Virus record (IMG/VR): IMGVR_UViG_3300046524_000073
Length of the DNA stretch: 20,000 nucleotides
Strand: one strand, 5' to 3'
Origin: an uncultured virus (IMG/VR IMGVR_UViG_3300046524_000073)
Taxonomy: Duplodnaviria; Heunggongvirae; Uroviricota; Caudoviricetes
Under the pieces are notes generated by a model. That model saw only the letters and a program-made list of their open reading frames with translations. It was not told where the DNA came from and ran no database searches. The stretch's first letter is position 1; the number at the start of each line of letters is the position of its first letter. A program made the position numbers and the translations under genes. Positions 1,657-15,282 of the stretch are shown piece after piece.

Positions 1657-1835
1657 GCCGCCTCCGGCACAGGAATTCCCATCCGCTTTGCCTCCTTAAT
1701 AACCCATGGCAAACGCCAGCCAGTATTGACCTTGCGCGAAATCTCGATTCGCTTTTCATCCTCCGTCAGGTAGCCATATCCTTTGCGGGGATAGTCGCCC
1801 GATTGGCGCAGGGCATCGTAGTAGCAATCTGTCAT
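1653..1835 (-). CDS. hypothetical phage protein
   Basis: 60 aa, AAGGAGG RBS, ends EAA* with ATGA overlap. Confidence 0.7.
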   Translation of the reverse strand: MTDCYYDALRQSGDYPRKGYGYLTEDEKRIEISRKVNTGWRLPWVIKEAKRMGIPVPEAA

Positions 1836-2602
1836 GCTGCCTCCTTGTCATTCATTTGAGAGTAGGGTGAATGCTGCCGCAGCCACGCTTGGAATTTGTC
1901 CATTCCCAGAGGCTTTAAGTCGGTCCACGCTGGCGGCCACACCATCAGCCAATCCTGGAAGTCCGCATTCACTGTGCGCCCCGAAACTACTTGGCCGCCA
2001 TGATTGAGGCTTAACCAGGCGAGGTAATCTTCGATCTGGCTGCGATGGTCGCCGCTCTTCGCGCGCTTCCAGCAGATTCCGTGCGTTCCGACGCTCGCCC
2101 TTGGCGTGGGCAAGTATCCAGACTCGTTCTCGACGCTGGGCGGCTCCAATGTGGTTACCTCCCAGCACTCCCCATCGCGCATCAAGCCCCATCGCGGCCA
2201 GGTCACCGAGGACTGTTCCGATGTATCCAGAAACAATGAGGCCTGTGACGTTCTCCAAGAGCACGAATCGCGGTCGAACATGGCGAATGACATCTGCCGT
2301 TGCGGGCCACATGTTTCGCTCGTCAGCTTCGCCGAGTTGCTTTCCTCCGAGTGAAAACGGCTGGCAGGGGAAACCTGCTGTAACCACGTCAGCAATTCCT
2401 CGGTATTGGTCGGCTGCACCGGACTGTGCGAACTGACGCACGTCAGTGAAGATTGGAGCGGCAGGCAGGATGCCGTCTCGGATGCGCGCTGCGATGACTC
2501 GCTGGCAGTAGTCGTTCCATTCGACATATCCGACAGGTTTCCACCCAAGCAGATGGGTTCCAAGCAATCCACCTCCAGCCCCGGTAAAGAGTGAAAGCTC
2601 AT
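1832..2602 (-). CDS. overprinted alternative-frame ORF, putative beta subunit (motif IX carrier) of the C5 methyltransferase
   Basis: Open for 256 codons across the MTase gene. Contains 'LPTPRAS' and motif IX-like 'VNADFQDWLMVWPPAWT'. Ends KEAA* coupled to the next gene. True start uncertain (2602, 2527 or later). Confidence 0.7.
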   Translation of the reverse strand: MSFHSLPGLEVDCLEPICLGGNLSDMSNGTTTASESSQRASETASCLPLQSSLTCVSSHSPVQPTNTEELLTWLQQVSPASRFHSEESNSAKLTSETCGPQRQMSFAMFDRDSCSWRTSQASLFLDTSEQSSVTWPRWGLMRDGECWEVTTLEPPSVENESGYLPTPRASVGTHGICWKRAKSGDHRSQIEDYLAWLSLNHGGQVVSGRTVNADFQDWLMVWPPAWTDLKPLGMDKFQAWLRQHSPYSQMNDKEAA

Positions 2603-2606
2603 TCAA
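1848..2606 (-). CDS. DNA cytosine-5 methyltransferase (alpha subunit)
   Basis: Motif I LFTGAGG, IV GFPCQPFS, VI ENV, VIII QRRERVWI, X LKASGNG. No motif IX in this frame. TTG start overlaps the ninG stop. Confidence 0.9.
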   Translation of the reverse strand: MNELSLFTGAGGGLLGTHLLGWKPVGYVEWNDYCQRVIAARIRDGILPAAPIFTDVRQFAQSGAADQYRGIADVVTAGFPCQPFSLGGKQLGEADERNMWPATADVIRHVRPRFVLLENVTGLIVSGYIGTVLGDLAAMGLDARWGVLGGNHIGAAQRRERVWILAHAKGERRNARNLLEAREERRPSQPDRRLPRLVKPQSWRPSSFGAHSECGLPGLADGVAASVDRLKASGNGQIPSVAAAAFTLLSNE

Positions 2607-9652: not shown

Positions 9653-9997
9653 TTAAGCCGCCCTCTGCGCAATCACTTCTTCCAGGATCGTCAGATTTGA
9701 CTGACGAGCGAGCCATTGCTGAACGCCCCAGTTACCGACTGCCGCCGCCCACGCATTCAGCTTTTCAGCCGAGAGATTGCGTCGCGTCGGTTTGTCGTCT
9801 TGAGCGAGGTAATCCGAGATGTGCGACGGATAACACTCGATACGTTCAGCAAGAGTCCGCAATGTCATTGCCTTGATCCTTCGATTCGTCCAGGACAAGC
9901 GCACGACTTCCCGGAAGGTTTTGCAGGCCAATACGTCGTCTGCGGGAAGAAAGGCGGGTGCGTGCACAACGCCACCAAACAGTCTCAGCTCGTCCAT
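9653..9997 (-). CDS. CII-like transcriptional regulator
   Basis: HTH-like MTLRTLAERIECYPSHISDYL. Lies between cro and replication genes. GGGAGG RBS before ATG 9997. Confidence 0.7.
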   Translation of the reverse strand: MDELRLFGGVVHAPAFLPADDVLACKTFREVVRLSWTNRRIKAMTLRTLAERIECYPSHISDYLAQDDKPTRRNLSAEKLNAWAAAVGNWGVQQWLARQSNLTILEEVIAQRAA

Positions 9998-10061
9998 AAA
10001 ACCTCCCTGATAGTTAGAAAACATTGAATAACCGGTTGCGCCCCCAGTTGATCTGGAGCTA

Positions 10062-10086
10062 ATTTAAAGGCGTCACGAAGACGCCT
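10062..10086 (-). terminator. tR1-like hairpin between cro and cII
   Basis: AGGCGTC-TTCGT-GACGCCT followed by a weak TTAAAT tail. Confidence 0.5.
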
Positions 10087-10149
10087 GAAAAAACGAAACC
10101 CCCTACCTACCTTTTCTTTTCCGGTACTGCCTTGAGTACTCCTGAGCTG

Positions 10150-10455
10150 CTACAGCGTTTTCTTTGCTTCTTTCGTCTTGCGACTCGCACCGCCCGTAAT
10201 GCGGGCCGGCGAACACAAAACCTCGCGCATCGTCTTCCAGTCGATGTCCGGATTAAGGTCTTCGCACCGAACTCCTGTAACCTTCTCAATCAGAACGCAT
10301 CGCTCGAGCGGAACACCCCGCGTCATCCAGTTGGCAATCGTCTGAGACTTAGTGCCCTCGCCAAGCAACTCGGCGAGCTTCGTGAGTCCGCCAGCCTTCT
10401 CGATCGCATCGCGAAGGGCTGGGGCGCCGGGGTGTGGGTTCGGTGTCTTCATCAT
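10150..10455 (-). CDS. cro: Cro/YdaS-like repressor
   Basis: AIEKAGGLTKLAELLG..SQTIANW..RGVP.ERC..IE..TGV...DLNPD. Divergent from cI. Confidence 0.88.
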   Translation of the reverse strand: MMKTPNPHPGAPALRDAIEKAGGLTKLAELLGEGTKSQTIANWMTRGVPLERCVLIEKVTGVRCEDLNPDIDWKTMREVLCSPARITGGASRKTKEAKKTL

Positions 10456-10462
10456 GCTCACA

Positions 10463-10491
10463 AAGATACACGCAATGTGAGTTGTGCGCAA
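10463..10491 (-). promoter_or_regulatory. PR promoter
   Basis: TTGCGC-17 bp-TATCTT, then 7 nt to the cro ATG. Confidence 0.7.
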
Positions 10492-10531
10492 TCATTTTGT
10501 GAGTTCACGTTGTGAGTCACAACACGTGTGT
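10466..10531. promoter_or_regulatory. OR operators (three 17-bp sites)
   Basis: ACTCAC-N5-GTGTAY-like sites at 10466-10482 (-), 10488-10504 (-) and 10515-10531 (+). Confidence 0.7.
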
Positions 10532-10544
10532 GAACGGGTACCCT
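10516..10544 (+). promoter_or_regulatory. PRM promoter
   Basis: GTCACA-17 bp-TACCCT, then 6 nt to the cI ATG at 10551. No SD present. Confidence 0.6.
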
Positions 10545-10550
10545 TCGCCC

Positions 10551-11294
10551 ATGGAAACAACGAATATTCCGTGGCACGTTATCCAGCAGAAGCTGGACAC
10601 GCTCACCAAGAACCAGGCATGGCTGGCGCTCCAGTTAAGGACCGGAACTAACACGATCACCAATTGGAAGAAGAGGGGTGGCGCGCCGCTGGCGCGGGTG
10701 CGTGAAATAGCCGAAGCGCTGCAGTGCAGCACAGATGAACTGCTTTCGGCTGCCGCGCAACCAACTCACATTTCAGTGGCTGCTGATGGGCCAATAAAGC
10801 GGCAAATCTCAGGCATGATTACCGATTCGCTCCAGATAGTGGGCGATATCATCGGTACGAATAACACTGAGCCAGGACCAGAAGGAACGGGACCATATCC
10901 CCTTATCTCGTGGGTTCAGGCTGGAGCCTGGGAACGAATTGTGGATAATTTTGCGCCGGGAGACGCGGAGCAGTGGATCGAGGCACCTGTAAAGGTCTCG
11001 AAGAGCTCCTACTGGCTGCGGGTATGCGGCGAGAGCATGTATGACCCAATGGGGAAGCGCTCATTCAAAGATGGCGATTTGGTTCTGGTCGAACCTCACG
11101 CATATGCGGAGAATGGATCTCTTGTAGTAGTGCGCCTGGATGACGAGTCTGAGGCCACGTTCAAACAACTCATCATTGAGGGAGGGCGAAAGTTCCTCAA
11201 GGCCCTGAATCCGAACTGGCCGAATCGTATCTTTGAGGTCAACGGCAACGCCACAATCTGCGGCGTCATCAAAGCCAAGACCGAGGTCTACTAG
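10551..11294 (+). CDS. cI: CI repressor (HTH plus S24 LexA-like peptidase)
   Basis: NQAWLALQLRTGTNTITNW HTH, PLISWVQAG cleavage site, VCGESM serine, ATFKQL lysine. Confidence 0.95.
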   Translation: METTNIPWHVIQQKLDTLTKNQAWLALQLRTGTNTITNWKKRGGAPLARVREIAEALQCSTDELLSAAAQPTHISVAADGPIKRQISGMITDSLQIVGDIIGTNNTEPGPEGTGPYPLISWVQAGAWERIVDNFAPGDAEQWIEAPVKVSKSSYWLRVCGESMYDPMGKRSFKDGDLVLVEPHAYAENGSLVVVRLDDESEATFKQLIIEGGRKFLKALNPNWPNRIFEVNGNATICGVIKAKTEVY

Positions 11295-11313
11295 GCCGCC
11301 AGCCTCCCGGAAA

Positions 11314-11438
11314 ACTCACGCAGTTTGTATATAGCCCGCCACCGAGCGGGCTTTTTTGCGTCTGTACAACACATACTCACAAACCCCTACAAACAAAAAC
11401 TCACAAAACGTTTGACATCAAACTCACACGACGTGTAC
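11314..11438. promoter_or_regulatory. OL operators
   Basis: ACTCACGCAGTTTGTAT (11314), ACTCAC half-site (11375), ACTCACAAAACGTTTGA (11399), ACTCACACGACGTGTAC (11422). Confidence 0.7.
11333..11357 (+). terminator. intrinsic terminator after cI
   Basis: AGCCCGC-CACCGA-GCGGGCT-TTTTT. Confidence 0.85.
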
Positions 11439-11441
11439 TAT
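11412..11441 (+). promoter_or_regulatory. PL promoter
   Basis: TTGACA-18 bp-TACTAT, overlapped by two operators. Confidence 0.8.
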
Positions 11442-11491
11442 TCATCCATGGAAGCAAGCAACACCGCACCAACCACTAACCGGAGAGCGAG

Positions 11492-11719
11492 ATGAGCCAG
11501 AACGCACGTACGCAGGGGATCGCAGCATTCAATGATGTAGCGAAGCCGGTGTACCAGAATCCGTACGCTTTCTCTGCAGACCCGAATTCCGACTATGAGC
11601 AGTTTCGCCTTGGATATTTCGTGGCGCGGCACGAAGGCCATCAAAGCGTTATCCAAAACATGCGCGGCGCGGAACTGCCAGCCGGATACATCAAAGGGTC
11701 GCAGCGTTACACCGCATAA
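11492..11719 (+). CDS. first PL gene, hypothetical (possible Rmf/CrpP-like motif)
   Basis: GGAGAG RBS. G..AF...NPY...F..GY pattern. Confidence 0.7.
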   Translation: MSQNARTQGIAAFNDVAKPVYQNPYAFSADPNSDYEQFRLGYFVARHEGHQSVIQNMRGAELPAGYIKGSQRYTA

Positions 11720-11760
11720 AGCTCAAAACCGCCGCAGAGCACCGCGGCAACAGGAAGGAA

Positions 11761-11863
11761 GGTCGAAACCCGGGCCAAACCTAGTGCATGAGTGCACACG
11801 CTATAGGCGAGTACCTAACAGTACGCACCCGGGTCTGAGCGTAACGCGCTCACTGACGAGACC
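11761..11863 (+). ncRNA. type II hammerhead ribozyme
   Basis: GGTC-GAAA-CCCGGG...CCCGGG-TC^-TGAGCG-taacg-CGCTCA-CTGACGA-GACC. Full conserved core, three perfectly paired stems, GUC cleavage triplet. Confidence 0.9.
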
Positions 11864-11918
11864 GTGAATAACCGCAGTAGAGGAACACAGGCGCACGGCG
11901 TCGCCTGGTGGGGCAAGA

Positions 11919-11930
11919 GATCTTTAACAA
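11919..11930 (+). promoter_or_regulatory. boxA-like antitermination element (nutL candidate)
   Basis: GATCTTTAACAA versus the boxA consensus GCTCTTTAACA. Preceded by hairpin CAGGCG/CGCCTG (11888-11907). Confidence 0.65.
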
Positions 11931-11931
11931 C

Positions 11932-12239
11932 GTAGTGGTTTGAGTTTGATCAGAGCTGGCGGCTTGTGTCCGTACGCGGAACATGACGAGCAGTTGGCCA
12001 TGATAGTCGCCAGCCCTGATCACATTCGAACCACTGCAACAGAAGGCATACCAGTAATGGCGGGGCCAACGCGCTACCCCGGAAAAGATCGGCGCCTATC
12101 AAGCCGTGGTGGTTCGGCTAGTGATCCACGGTGAGATTGATAGTGCATCCATACCGAGAGCCGACCGCGTCGGGTGTAACTCGGGTGGATGCACATGCTT
12201 CACCAGTGCGCATTTGAAGAGTGCGCAGTGGCGTGGCAT
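11932..12239 (+). ncRNA. structured non-coding block of tandem long hairpins
   Basis: 33-bp stem 11932-12037, then abutting hairpins 12096-12143, 12143-12194 and 12195-12239, with G-U pairs valid on the + strand. Confidence 0.65.
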
Positions 12240-12261
12240 TAACTAAAGGACGGAACATCTG

Positions 12262-12735
12262 ATGCTCACTGCCGAGAGACTGCGCGAGGTAATTGACTAC
12301 GACCCGGAGAGGGGAGTTCTTATCTGGAAAAAATCGGGCAACGTTGCCGGCTATGTCGGGAAAGAAGGTTATCGAAATGTGTGTGTCGATGGTCGTATGT
12401 ACCGAGAGCACAGACTCGCGTGGCTTCATGCAACAGGGAGTTGGCCCAAACAGAGCCTCGACCACATCAACGGGTCGCGGGCCGACAACAGATTAACCAA
12501 TCTGCGCGAAGCGTCTGGAATGCAAAACGCTAAAAACATGAAGCGGCCCGTCACAAACACGTCTGGACTTAAAGGTGCTAGTTGGCACAAGCGTTCAGGA
12601 AAGTGGCAGGCGGCCATCATGTGCGATCGGAAACTAAAGCATCTCGGGTTATTTGAGACTGCGGAAGAAGCGCACGCTGCCTATTGTGAGGCCGCATCAA
12701 GGCTGCACGGAGATTTTGCCTGCCTTGATCGCTGA
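12262..12735 (+). CDS. HNH homing endonuclease with C-terminal AP2 domain
   Basis: HRLAW...DHINGSRADNRLTNLR (HNH) and NTSGLKGASWHKRSGKWQAAI...HLGLFETAEEAHAAY (AP2). Confidence 0.92.
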   Translation: MLTAERLREVIDYDPERGVLIWKKSGNVAGYVGKEGYRNVCVDGRMYREHRLAWLHATGSWPKQSLDHINGSRADNRLTNLREASGMQNAKNMKRPVTNTSGLKGASWHKRSGKWQAAIMCDRKLKHLGLFETAEEAHAAYCEAASRLHGDFACLDR

Positions 12736-12745
12736 GAGTTGCAAC

Positions 12746-12905
12746 GCTGGATGTTGAGAGGATGGGAATGCGCGAGTGGTGATCGCGTACTCGGCTAGTT
12801 GTCGATGTCCCGAAGCTGGAAATTCACCCCCAGCCCCATCCCTTGAACACCCAGCACGATTCTCCTTGCATCTGCCGATTCTCGCGAGTCGGTAGCGGCG
12901 AGGGG
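12746..12905 (+). ncRNA. structured non-coding block: cloverleaf-like four-way junction plus long hairpin
   Basis: GGATGGG/CCCATCC closes three hairpins, with an extended outer stem 12746-12855. Separate hairpin 12862-12905. Confidence 0.55.
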
Positions 12906-12963
12906 TATCTAGTATCAACACAGATTAGTACTGCTACGCGCTGCGGCGCACAAAGGAACTGGA

Positions 12964-13668
12964 ATGGGATGCGACATTCACCTGTACGTTGAAAAGAGAA
13001 TCGATGGTAAGTGGATCGCTCAAGGCACGTTCACCCGCGAAGACGTCGAATCTGATGGCTCTGGCGGCTGGATCGATGGTGGGCAAGACATCTACGACGG
13101 GCGGAACTATGACCTCTTCGCAATTCTCGCCGACGTGCGGAACGGTCGCGGATTCGCTGGCGTAAAGACTGGCGAGGGATTCAACCCGATTTCTGAGCCG
13201 AGGGGTATCCCCGAAGACGCCAGCGAACAGTACAAAGAGATCGCCCAACGCTGGGATTGCGACGGCCACTCCCACTCGTATTTCACCGTCCGCGAGTTGC
13301 TTGACTACGACTGGACTCAGGAAACCGGGAAACAGGGCTGGCTCAGCATAGCCGAGTGGGAGAAATGGTCTCGATGGGATAGAGAGCGCGGCCTCGGTCC
13401 GGATTCGTGGTACGGCTTTATCGACGGCGGAGGAGTCAAGCATATCTCCACAGAGGATGCCGATGCGCTGTTCAAGGGTGTCGGTTGGTCGGATCGCGAC
13501 ACGGTTGTCGCCAAACACCCACAGACCTACGTGCAAGCCTCATGGGGAACACCGTATTACCGAGCAGCTGGCAACTTTATCGAAGAAACGTTGAGCAAAT
13601 TGCTCAAGCTGGCCGGCGGAACGAAGGGTATCGATGACGTTCGGATCGTCTTCTTCTTCGACAACTGA
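12964..13668 (+). CDS. hypothetical phage protein (MGCDIH...RNYDLFAILADVRN...RIVFFFDN type)
   Basis: 234-aa ORF with AAGGA RBS, in operon direction. Confidence 0.85.
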   Translation: MGCDIHLYVEKRIDGKWIAQGTFTREDVESDGSGGWIDGGQDIYDGRNYDLFAILADVRNGRGFAGVKTGEGFNPISEPRGIPEDASEQYKEIAQRWDCDGHSHSYFTVRELLDYDWTQETGKQGWLSIAEWEKWSRWDRERGLGPDSWYGFIDGGGVKHISTEDADALFKGVGWSDRDTVVAKHPQTYVQASWGTPYYRAAGNFIEETLSKLLKLAGGTKGIDDVRIVFFFDN

Positions 13669-13680
13669 TCGGAGGCTCAG

Positions 13681-13821
13681 ATGTTCTACAGCGACTACGG
13701 ATTTCGATCCTATTCCGCCCGGATTTCGAACTACATCATCCGATTCGTTTCGCACTATGACGAGTACGTTAATTCTAGGCTTGTTCGGAGCGTGGATCTG
13801 AATGACGTCGTCTGGTGCTGA
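13681..13821 (+). CDS. small hypothetical protein (46 aa)
   Basis: Read manually: GGAGG RBS, MFYSDYGFRSYSARISNYIIRFVSHYDEYVNSRLVRSVDLNDVVWC*. Confidence 0.6.
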   Translation: MFYSDYGFRSYSARISNYIIRFVSHYDEYVNSRLVRSVDLNDVVWC

Positions 13822-13870
13822 CTCACAAACGCATCACGAACCCACTTTGCGACTCATATACGAGGCAATC

Positions 13871-14011
13871 ATGAACATCTACCACTGGATAGCAGTCATC
13901 TTTCTCGCTGATTTGGCGCTCGCAATGACTGTGTTTCTACCGTTCGTGCGTGGCGCGGACGAACGCCGCGGTGAGGCGCCGAAGCGGAAAACTAAGTTGG
14001 GGGTGCAGTGA
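13871..14011 (+). CDS. small membrane protein
   Basis: GAGG RBS, MNIYHWIAVIFLADLALAMTVFLPFV hydrophobic stretch, basic tail. Confidence 0.65.
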   Translation: MNIYHWIAVIFLADLALAMTVFLPFVRGADERRGEAPKRKTKLGVQ

Positions 14012-14265
14012 TGGACCAGAAGACGATAGTCATTTGGGACCAAATCGGACAGGACGATATCAAGTTCGCAATTCTCGACGGCGATTACAGCGAACTGGAT
14101 GGCATCTACATCAACAACAGTCTTCAGGAGCCGGAAGACGTCAATCGCCTCTCTGATCTGATCTACGACGACAACGGACGAGAGATTGCGACGTTCGTCG
14201 ACAAGTTCCCGGTCGATCTTGTGAAAGAGGGCGCGGTCGTCATCGTTGCGGGATTCCTGCCATGA
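14008..14265 (+). CDS. hypothetical acidic protein
   Basis: 85 aa, overlap-coupled on both sides. Confidence 0.75.
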   Translation: MMDQKTIVIWDQIGQDDIKFAILDGDYSELDGIYINNSLQEPEDVNRLSDLIYDDNGREIATFVDKFPVDLVKEGAVVIVAGFLP

Positions 14266-14393
14266 AAACTGAACTAGACGAGTGGATCGAATTCACTCGC
14301 GCATGGCTTGACGAGGAAACCCGCAAGCAACGTGAGGTCGACGAGGCCGACTGGATTCGCTTCAGAGCGAAGGTGCTGGGGCCGTTTGATTGA
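14262..14393 (+). CDS. small hypothetical protein (43 aa)
   Basis: Read manually: MKTELDEWIEFTRAWLDEETRKQREVDEADWIRFRAKVLGPFD*, ATGA overlap. Confidence 0.55.
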   Translation: MKTELDEWIEFTRAWLDEETRKQREVDEADWIRFRAKVLGPFD

Positions 14394-14424
14394 ATACTAA
14401 GCGACGGCCGCTCTTAGCTTCTAT

Positions 14425-14820
14425 AAGCCGCAGCGGTGAGACGCCGCAACGAACACAGCGCCCAGCCGAAGGTGGCCTCGAAACATCGGCAGATGCAGCG
14501 TTACGGGTTTGCCAGCAATGGCTCGCGATTGCATACCGCGGCTCCTTCCCCGGCTTCTGAAAATGCTTGGCGTGGTCCCCGTCTGTGCGGACTCGACTGT
14601 TCCTTGTCGCTAGTAAAGAAGTGCGTGATGCGTTTGACAGCCGGGAAAGACCGGCGCCCTGACGAGTAGCGGATTCCCACTGCAAGAACGCCGGATAACC
14701 GGGGACCGGCCCGCTACTCGCCAGGGCCAAAGCGGATGCCATCTATTGATCCTGAGCCGTTATTGCGTAGCTAGCCGTAGGCGGAACAACTCAGGTGAAG
14801 GTGGATGCAGCGAGTAACCC
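14425..14820 (+). ncRNA. third structured non-coding block (multibranch domain, c4-like element, long hairpins)
   Basis: Stems AAGCCG/CGGCTT, GCCGG-GAAAGA-CCGGC, CCCTGACGAGTAGCGG/CCGCTACTCGCCAGGG, CCTGAG/CTCAGG. No convincing RBS-led ORF. Confidence 0.55.
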
Positions 14821-14842
14821 TGACAAACATTTCGGAGTCCAT

Positions 14843-15052
14843 ATGGGACAGCATGCAAACGCCCGTGCTTGGGCAGAGTACGAGCGCCTTGACCGTCTGA
14901 AGCAAGACGAGCAGCTAGAAAGTGATCCGCCGCTGACTGAGGAAGAAAAGGCTGCGGCATGGGATGACTCCTACTGGGAGCGGCTTGACGCTGCGGCGCG
15001 GTATGCGGGGGCGGGGCGGCATGTGTGGGGCGAGATGGGGAGGGCGGGATGA
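14843..15052 (+). CDS. hypothetical phage protein
   Basis: GGAG RBS before ATG 14843, coupled to the next gene. Confidence 0.65.
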   Translation: MGQHANARAWAEYERLDRLKQDEQLESDPPLTEEEKAAAWDDSYWERLDAAARYAGAGRHVWGEMGRAG

Positions 15053-15282
15053 AGATCATTCAACTGGCTGTGGCGCTGAATAACGAAGGCGAAGAAAGCC
15101 TGTATGCGCTCTGCGATGACGGATCGGTATTGCAGCGGCGTTGGGCATCAAAACCGAGGGCAGTCGTTGGCCGTGCTCCAGGAACTACCTATATGGATGG
15201 CTGGACTGAGGGCTGGATTCCCGTCGACGCCGGTTGGTCGGTTGCCGTAAAGCACCCCGAAGATACCCGGAGCCAATCATGA
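15049..15282 (+). CDS. hypothetical phage protein
   Basis: MKIIQLAV...LYALCDDGSV, ATGA overlaps. Confidence 0.75.
   Translation: MKIIQLAVALNNEGEESLYALCDDGSVLQRRWASKPRAVVGRAPGTTYMDGWTEGWIPVDAGWSVAVKHPEDTRSQS

What the first reader, a model, noticed from the sequence alone, without database searches (positions are those of the whole stretch)
11761..11863. Type II hammerhead ribozyme with a structured insert, at the head of the PL operon
Seen: GGTC (11761-64), GAAA, stem III CCCGGG (11769-74)/CCCGGG (11828-33), GUC cleavage triplet (cut predicted after C11835), stem I TGAGCG/CGCTCA, core CTGACGA (11853-59), and GACC closing the open stem II. The stem III loop is a 53-nt insert that itself folds (CCTA/TAGG, GTGCA/TGCAC, GTAC/GTAC). 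Established: CUGANGA/GAAA/NUH is the hammerhead catalytic core, and hammerheads occur in phage contexts with mostly unknown roles. Inference: self-cleavage separates the first PL cistron from the downstream RNA and creates a defined 5'-OH end just upstream of boxA and the hairpin array.
Basis: partly seen in the sequence, partly recalled or inferred. Interest (0 to 1): 0.9.

Follow-up and report, generated by a model that had tools for sequence, protein, structure and literature searches.

The report
Phage hammerhead ending a swappable gene
A temperate soil phage carries a real but familiar self-cutting RNA that most likely cuts its first early gene off from the long non-coding RNA behind it; the odd insert in it looks like dispensable filler.

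Summary
The type II hammerhead is real. It has all 13 core positions, stems II/III/I of 4/6/6 bp, and a cut after C11835. It was the only hit in the window, and 0 of 150 shuffles gave one. It also has U1.7 and the A before stem II; neither was in the search patterns, yet they hold in 173 and 174 of 175 related hammerheads. The 53-nt insert is not special: the closest relative has a 12-nt stem III in its place, the insert folds no better than shuffles (289 of 1000), and I found no homologue. Type II hammerheads in prophages are known (Perreault 2011), including a related one in phage Bcep176. The context adds something: 18 loci read promoter, unrelated small gene(s), hammerhead, boxA, non-coding RNA, while 10 related leaders have neither gene nor hammerhead. 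Best reading: a constitutive cut that ends an exchangeable gene cassette and gives the boxA-led RNA its own 5' end. No cleavage or RNA data were available. This scan noted the same kind of region on other DNA (e1-4301103, e1-5874228, e1-6223724).

The parts
10512..11294 (+). CI-like repressor gene (context)
   Evidence: PHROG 4, E 2.9e-34
11333..11357 (+). Intrinsic terminator after cI
   Evidence: 7-bp stem plus T run
11412..11441 (+). PL-like sigma-70 promoter
   Evidence: Only promoter match in 9900-15100, 10 of 12 consensus bases (shuffles give 2.4 matches on average, so position carries the case); same region conserved in CI relatives
11492..11719 (+). First cistron, 75 aa, exchangeable cargo gene with Shine-Dalgarno at 11482-85
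   Evidence: No PHROG or Pfam family; Atlas hits below 0.9, RMF-like lead only; unrelated ORFs fill this slot in relatives
11731..11748 (+). Small GC hairpin between stop codon and ribozyme
   Evidence: Predicted; shared by many rhizosphere contigs that diverge at 11752
11760..11760 (+). A just 5' of stem II, likely partner of U1.7
   Evidence: A in 174 of 175 hammerheads, not fixed by the patterns
11761..11768 (+). Stem II 5' strand and GAAA (G12-A15.1)
11769..11833 (+). Stem III (6 G-C pairs) closing the 53-nt insert 11775-11827
   Evidence: P>=0.86 in all contexts folded; longest of 175; insert not conserved
11834..11835 (+). U16.1 and C17; cleavage 3' of 11835
   Evidence: NUH rule, established hammerhead chemistry; not assayed
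11836..11852 (+). Stem I (6 bp) with 5-nt loop; U1.7 at 11842
   Evidence: 78 of 78 pairs Watson-Crick in 13 distinct versions, with a change on both sides at each of 6 positions; U1.7 in 173 of 175
11853..11863 (+). CUGANGA core and stem II 3' strand
11919..11929 (+). boxA (GNTCTTTAANA consensus)
   Evidence: Single match in the window; the same 10-mer lies before 16S (4 copies) and 23S (4 copies) in a Burkholderia genome
11932..12261 (+). Non-coding hairpin array; long hairpin about 11932-12037
   Evidence: 11836-12262 folds at z = -6.97, 0 of 100 shuffles; no credible Rfam family

Best explanation
An active, constitutive type II hammerhead that forms the 3' end of an exchangeable 'small gene + ribozyme' cassette sitting between the PL-like promoter and boxA. 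Shown: core, stems, conserved tertiary-contact bases, cassette architecture across relatives. Inferred: it folds as it is transcribed and cuts after 11835. Only the 4-bp stem II holds the products, so they part. The upstream mRNA ends in stem III, where any hairpin will do, so the insert is filler. The downstream RNA starts with a 5'-OH and the stem I hairpin, 83 nt before boxA, much as ORF-less relatives start about 40-50 nt before boxA. The cut acts like a terminator plus new start that does not stop polymerase, so cargo mRNA and boxA-led non-coding RNA get separate ends and lifetimes.
For: Perfect core, 0 of 150 shuffles. Stems not demanded by the search pattern are present in 128 of 131 distinct pattern matches. 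U1.7 173/175 and 5' A 174/175, with neighbouring positions variable; this matches the U-A trans-Hoogsteen contact described in PMC9217987 passages. 18 hammerhead+boxA loci keep the core, with cut-to-boxA distances of 60-85 nt. Upstream ORFs are unrelated: one blastp pair among the 20 ORFs compared. The CI relative at 88% identity lacks 11468-11918 altogether. Ten promoter-boxA leaders without an ORF have no hammerhead. Of 147 hammerheads without boxA, 96 start within 15 nt of a stop codon and 105 have a Shine-Dalgarno and start within 45 nt, so this family punctuates operons. Perreault 2011 showed cleavage of clustered prophage hammerheads in vitro and in E. coli.
Against: No cleavage assay and no transcript data. 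Stem II probability falls from 0.6-0.8 to below 0.1-0.5 once RNA beyond 11895 is added, so slow cleavage could lose to refolding. Two loci have an ORF before boxA and no hammerhead (L056/L062, L060). 13 of the 18 loci were reached only through hammerhead-based searches, and the loci share ancestry. Four of 18 consensus hammerheads were inactive in Perreault 2011. Product stability rests on recalled RNase knowledge, not tested here.
Confidence: 0.55

Rival explanations
1. Active but incidental: the hammerhead travels with gene cassettes by recombination between phage early regions, and its place before boxA has no selected effect on the downstream RNA.
For: The family follows stop codons whether or not boxA follows (96/147 vs 8/14 within 15 nt). 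The same ribozyme runs straight into a gene in L200, L207, L208 and BcepC6B. The region is a mosaic of modules. A homologue in Bcep176 carries a damaging A6C change.
Against: Core intact and stem I fully paired with compensatory changes in all 18 boxA-linked loci, which argues for selection on cutting, though not on what it is for.
Confidence: 0.2
2. The cut is needed for boxA/Nus antitermination: it detaches upstream ribosomes and Rho and removes a strand that can pair with boxA, restoring a short 5' leader.
For: In the window boxA is predicted 0.36 unpaired uncut and 0.86 cut; ORF-less leaders have 0.83-0.99. In the sets not chosen by the hammerhead pattern, 5 of 7 ORF-bearing leaders and 0 of 9 ORF-less ones have a hammerhead (Fisher p = 0.005; rows not independent).
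Against: The gain in boxA access is seen in only 9 of 18 loci, and both pairing strands are fixed for other reasons, so there is no covariation. Lambda nutR works just after cro without a cut (recalled). Cleavage on a scale of seconds to a minute may be slower than transcription of 83 nt (inference).
Confidence: 0.13
3. The 53-nt insert is a sensor or protein-binding domain that regulates cleavage.
For: Longest stem III of 175 (65 nt, next 63, median about 17); none of 70-100 nt in IMG/VR under the pattern; three small hairpins predicted.
Against: L039 is 94% identical over 11832-12101 yet has a 12-nt stem III; lengths 12-65 nt among the 18; no homologue among loci held; stability at chance level; six G-C pairs insulate it from the core.
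Confidence: 0.04
4. A decayed or misfolded ribozyme that does not cut in vivo.
For: Competing folds for stem II in longer contexts; Rfam gives no call.
Against: No departure from Perreault's acceptance rules; Rfam also under-scores a short sibling (18.9 bits against cut-off 37); folding programs ignore the tertiary contact.
Confidence: 0.08

Closest known systems
Type II hammerhead ribozymes of bacteria and prophages (Perreault et al. 2011, PMC3088659; Rfam RF02276)
   Same: Same permutation and core; found beside small prophage genes; proposed to cut long phage transcripts into gene-length pieces. The Bcep176 hammerhead tested in that paper has the same layout and matches L046 by blastn.
   Different: 4-bp stem II and no loop I/tail pseudoknot (pairing no better than permuted), whereas most type II there use one; 65-nt stem III; followed by boxA and non-coding RNA, not by a gene; below Rfam's cut-off.
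Minimal hammerhead with the U1.7-A trans-Hoogsteen contact (O'Rourke 2015, seen only as described in PMC9217987; conserved reverse Hoogsteen pair of types I and III in PMC6155905)
   Same: U seven bases after the cut and an A at the position of the last base of loop II.
   Different: Here stem II is open, so the A is a dangling base from the upstream RNA; the contact is inferred from conservation only.
boxA/Nus antitermination of rrn operons and CRISPR arrays; lambda nutL
   Same: GNTCTTTAANA match, same 10-mer as the host-type rrn boxA, ahead of a long untranslated stretch in a PL-like operon.
   Different: No N-like gene or GNRA boxB identified; a ribozyme and cargo gene lie upstream; Nus binding not tested.

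Membership tests
Hammerhead ribozyme | Core C3 U4 G5 A6 N7 G8 A9, G12 A13 A14 A15, U16 H17 | tested here: met
   rules as
Hammerhead ribozyme | Three stems, paired next to the core | tested here: met
   covariation
Hammerhead ribozyme | Stem I-stem II tertiary contact | tested here: inconclusive
   U1.7 and 5' A present and nearly invariant; the contact itself not observed
Hammerhead ribozyme | Site-specific self-cleavage to 2',3'-cyclic phosphate and 5'-OH | not testable with these tools
Type II hammerhead (Perreault 2011) | Stems I and III closed, stem II open | tested here: met
Type II hammerhead (Perreault 2011) | Loop I / 3' tail pseudoknot of 4 or more pairs (majority feature, not obligatory) | tested here: not met
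   Best run 2-3 pairs in the window; family mean 2.33 vs 2.29 permuted, 121 of 500 permutations as high
Rfam RF02276 Hammerhead_II | Score at or above 37 bits | tested here: not met
   Not listed for the window; short sibling L067 18.9 bits
Nus boxA site | GNTCTTTAANA and identity with host rrn boxA | tested here: met
   host rrn copies have GC or GT where the window has GA
Nus boxA site | NusB/E binding and antitermination | not testable with these tools
   No assay
Allosteric ribozyme / riboswitch | Conserved, covarying sensor domain coupled to the core | tested here: not met
   Insert absent from close relatives, no homologue, chance-level stability

The most novel reading that the evidence does not exclude
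Burkholderia-group temperate phages reset the 5' end ahead of boxA whenever a gene is inserted into the PL leader, using interchangeable RNA cutters: usually this hammerhead, and in two loci an uncatalogued four-way junction with covarying kissing loops, which would then be a tRNA-like RNase P substrate or a new self-cleaving RNA. The reset would be needed for Nus-dependent transcription of the downstream non-coding array.
Probability: 0.13. Interest if true: 0.75.

Novelty: new member of a known kind. Interest (0 to 1): 0.35.

Why it matters
The role of phage hammerheads is still called an open question (PMC6155905 passage). The ribozyme itself is ordinary, but here nature supplies the comparison: closely related leaders with and without the gene+ribozyme cassette ahead of the same boxA and hairpin, so a short reporter series could show what the cut does.

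Tried and rejected
Loop I/tail pseudoknot: suggested by three early loci, rejected on 175. Insert as sensor: rejected. Insert as relic of a second hammerhead 5' half: inconclusive, 205 of 2000 shuffles and 19 of 338 window tiles score as high. 'Cleavage frees boxA' as a general rule: 9 of 18 only. Rfam miRNA matches at 11935-12036 are long-hairpin artefacts far below cut-off. Of the 27 core+boxA pattern hits in IMG/VR, 8 were type II hammerheads; the other 19 were dropped: three (L015, L019, L033) look like type I hammerheads whose cut site overlaps the 10-mer, and the rest show no hammerhead. Two of 8 metagenome hits (L071, L073) and both hits were not hammerheads. Four of 13 boxA+hairpin hits were unrelated. 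boxA patterns in 213 Paraburkholderia-genus genomes mostly hit host loci: I looked at 6 of 11 and 4 of 65 places, and recognised two more by coordinates. The CI-anchored scan gave boxA in only 2 of 80 loci, both the phage already known. The family-wide DNA search matched 3 of 396 genomes scored; 5 were not scored. blastn of the window leader against cultured phages matched only the terminator. No RNA holder listed. ARAGORN and Rfam do not call the cloverleaf. ORF75 stays unassigned. PMC10250234 proved irrelevant.

Full report
Observation. A type II descriptor finds one site in the window, with stems II, III and I of 4, 6 and 6 pairs plus a possible U-G pair, and none in 150 dinucleotide shuffles. 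The predicted fold is the hammerhead junction. The insert is the weak part: one of the three helices named has probability 0.07, another pairing is preferred, and the insert folds no better than chance (289 of 1000 shuffles). It is real DNA: contigs from 4 of 4 runs laid, from four listed studies that may be one campaign, span it with 0-1 differences. Rfam misses the ribozyme and also under-scores a sibling with a short stem III (18.9 bits against 37).

Setting. The window is a lambdoid early region: cro and replication genes on one side; cI, a terminator, a PL-like promoter, ORF75, the ribozyme, boxA, a strongly folded non-coding stretch (z = -6.97), an HNH gene, and later Erf, SSB, Gam-like and exonuclease genes on the other. 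No terminator-like site lies between promoter and ribozyme. The host is not given; the nearest named loci are Paraburkholderia and Burkholderia. The boxA fits GNTCTTTAANA (consensus from a passage of 10.64898/2026.07.09.737519), occurs once in the window, and the same 10-mer precedes 16S and 23S four times each in one Burkholderia genome.

The family. Pattern scans of IMG/VR, metagenomes and genomes gave 175 distinct type II cores passing the descriptor. The pattern did not ask for stems, yet 128 of 131 distinct matches have them. Nor did it ask for U1.7 or the A before stem II, found in 173 and 174 of 175 while neighbours vary. These are the positions of the U-A trans-Hoogsteen contact described in PMC9217987; the window has both (11842, 11760). 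A loop I/tail pseudoknot is not supported. Stem III runs from 10 to 65 nt, median about 17; the window is longest, L003 has 63, and none of 70-100 nt was found.

The cassette. Eighteen loci, the window included, have hammerhead then boxA or a near variant 60-85 nt after the cut. Their 13 distinct stem I versions are fully Watson-Crick paired, with compensatory changes at all six pairs. Stem III varies from 12 to 65 nt; L039, 94% identical over 11832-12101, has 12. The ORFs upstream are unrelated, apart from one near-identical pair among 20 compared (two of the 20, L034 and L016, are doubtful calls, and none was found for L046); only a KilA-N domain was named among 16 scanned. Ten leaders go from promoter to boxA with no ORF and no hammerhead: the 88% CI relative L040-42, L222, L239 (kind of element unverified) and seven cultured phages found by similarity downstream of boxA; in the eight measured the start lies about 39-52 nt before boxA. 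Two leaders have an ORF and, in the ribozyme's place, a four-way junction with complementary loops (L056/L062, L060). In sets not chosen by the hammerhead pattern, 5 of 7 ORF-bearing and 0 of 9 ORF-less leaders carry it (p = 0.005, before the tenth ORF-less leader was added). That figure overstates the case: two of the five share one cassette, one lies in a genome first reached through the hammerhead, and several ORF-less leaders are close kin. Elsewhere the family is usually followed by a ribosome-binding site (105 of 147), never in the boxA subset (0 of 14, which was selected for boxA).

Mechanism. Shown: anatomy, conservation, cassette layout. Inferred from established chemistry: a cut after 11835 leaving a cyclic phosphate upstream and a 5'-OH downstream. 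Inferred from topology: the products are held by four pairs only, the upstream mRNA keeps stem III at its 3' end and the downstream RNA begins with stem I. Recalled, not tested: 3' hairpins slow exonucleases and 5'-OH ends are poor RNase E substrates. Together this makes the ribozyme a punctuation mark that ends a cargo gene without stopping polymerase (0.55). Rivals are an incidental passenger (0.2), a requirement for boxA function (0.13), inactivity (0.08) and a sensing insert (0.04). Against the best reading: stem II competes with other folds once RNA beyond 11895 is made, and no assay or transcript evidence exists here.

Literature. PMC3088659: parts 1-5 of 8 read (abstract, results, discussion, methods) plus a term search of 11 supplementary files, with no 'boxA'; figures not seen and the sequence alignments of Dataset S1 not examined, so this subfamily may already be listed there. 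It reports type II hammerheads flanking prophage genes and tests the Bcep176 variant, which I find in the Bcep176 record with the same layout. Passages only: PMC9217987, PMC5725501, PMC3177189, PMC6155905, PMC10085705, PMC10250234, 10.64898/2026.07.09.737519. O'Rourke 2015 and Stringer 2020 were seen only as cited. Searches listed no paper on a hammerhead placed before boxA in a phage leader; the library lacks most subscription journals. Earlier notes of this scan describe the same kind of region on other DNA.

Verdict. A real, probably active type II hammerhead: a new member of a known kind. The cassette-before-boxA layout is the part worth testing. Interest 0.35.

Noticed in passing
window 12757-12843; L024, L056, L060, L278, L279, L282: Uncatalogued four-way junction whose first and last loops are complementary over 4-6 bases, with covariation across three loop variants; tRNA-like in plan, not called by Rfam or ARAGORN; one arm recurs in Klebsiella, Escherichia, Pseudomonas and Aeromonas phages.
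   Followed up: partly
window 11932-12037: Long hairpin right after boxA whose outer arms are conserved while the inside is swapped between phages.
   Followed up: partly
window 11731-11748: Small hairpin resembling stem III of the L072 and L119 hammerheads; many contigs leave the window sequence at 11752 and run into another gene.
   Followed up: no
window 11492-11719: ORF75 gives weak Atlas leads to RMF-like and DUF2623 small proteins (scores below 0.9).
   Followed up: partly
window 12262-12735: HNH endonuclease gene set within the non-coding array; L039 has other sequence of similar length there.
   Followed up: no
window 14266-14800: Second long intergenic stretch, partly conserved in L014, L024 and L039, folding at chance level overall (z = -1.17).
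   Followed up: partly
L010, L011, L096, L099/L100: Phage regions with four or more type II hammerheads each, mostly one before each small gene, with stem II letters changing on both sides in some copies.
   Followed up: no
L058 2061-2148 (-): tRNA-like element (Rfam tRNA 44.4 bits, no clear anticodon) inside the boxA-led array of a relative.
   Followed up: no
L015, L019, L033: Apparent type I hammerheads whose cut site overlaps the boxA 10-mer, seemingly by chance.
   Followed up: no
L281 (phage BcepC6B) and L280 (Bcep176): Unannotated type II hammerheads of this subfamily in cultured phages; the Bcep176 one is the A6C variant of Perreault 2011.
   Followed up: partly
window 1848-2606 and 1832-2602 (-): Two long overlapping ORFs in different frames; the first reads like a cytosine methyltransferase by eye, not scanned.
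   Followed up: no
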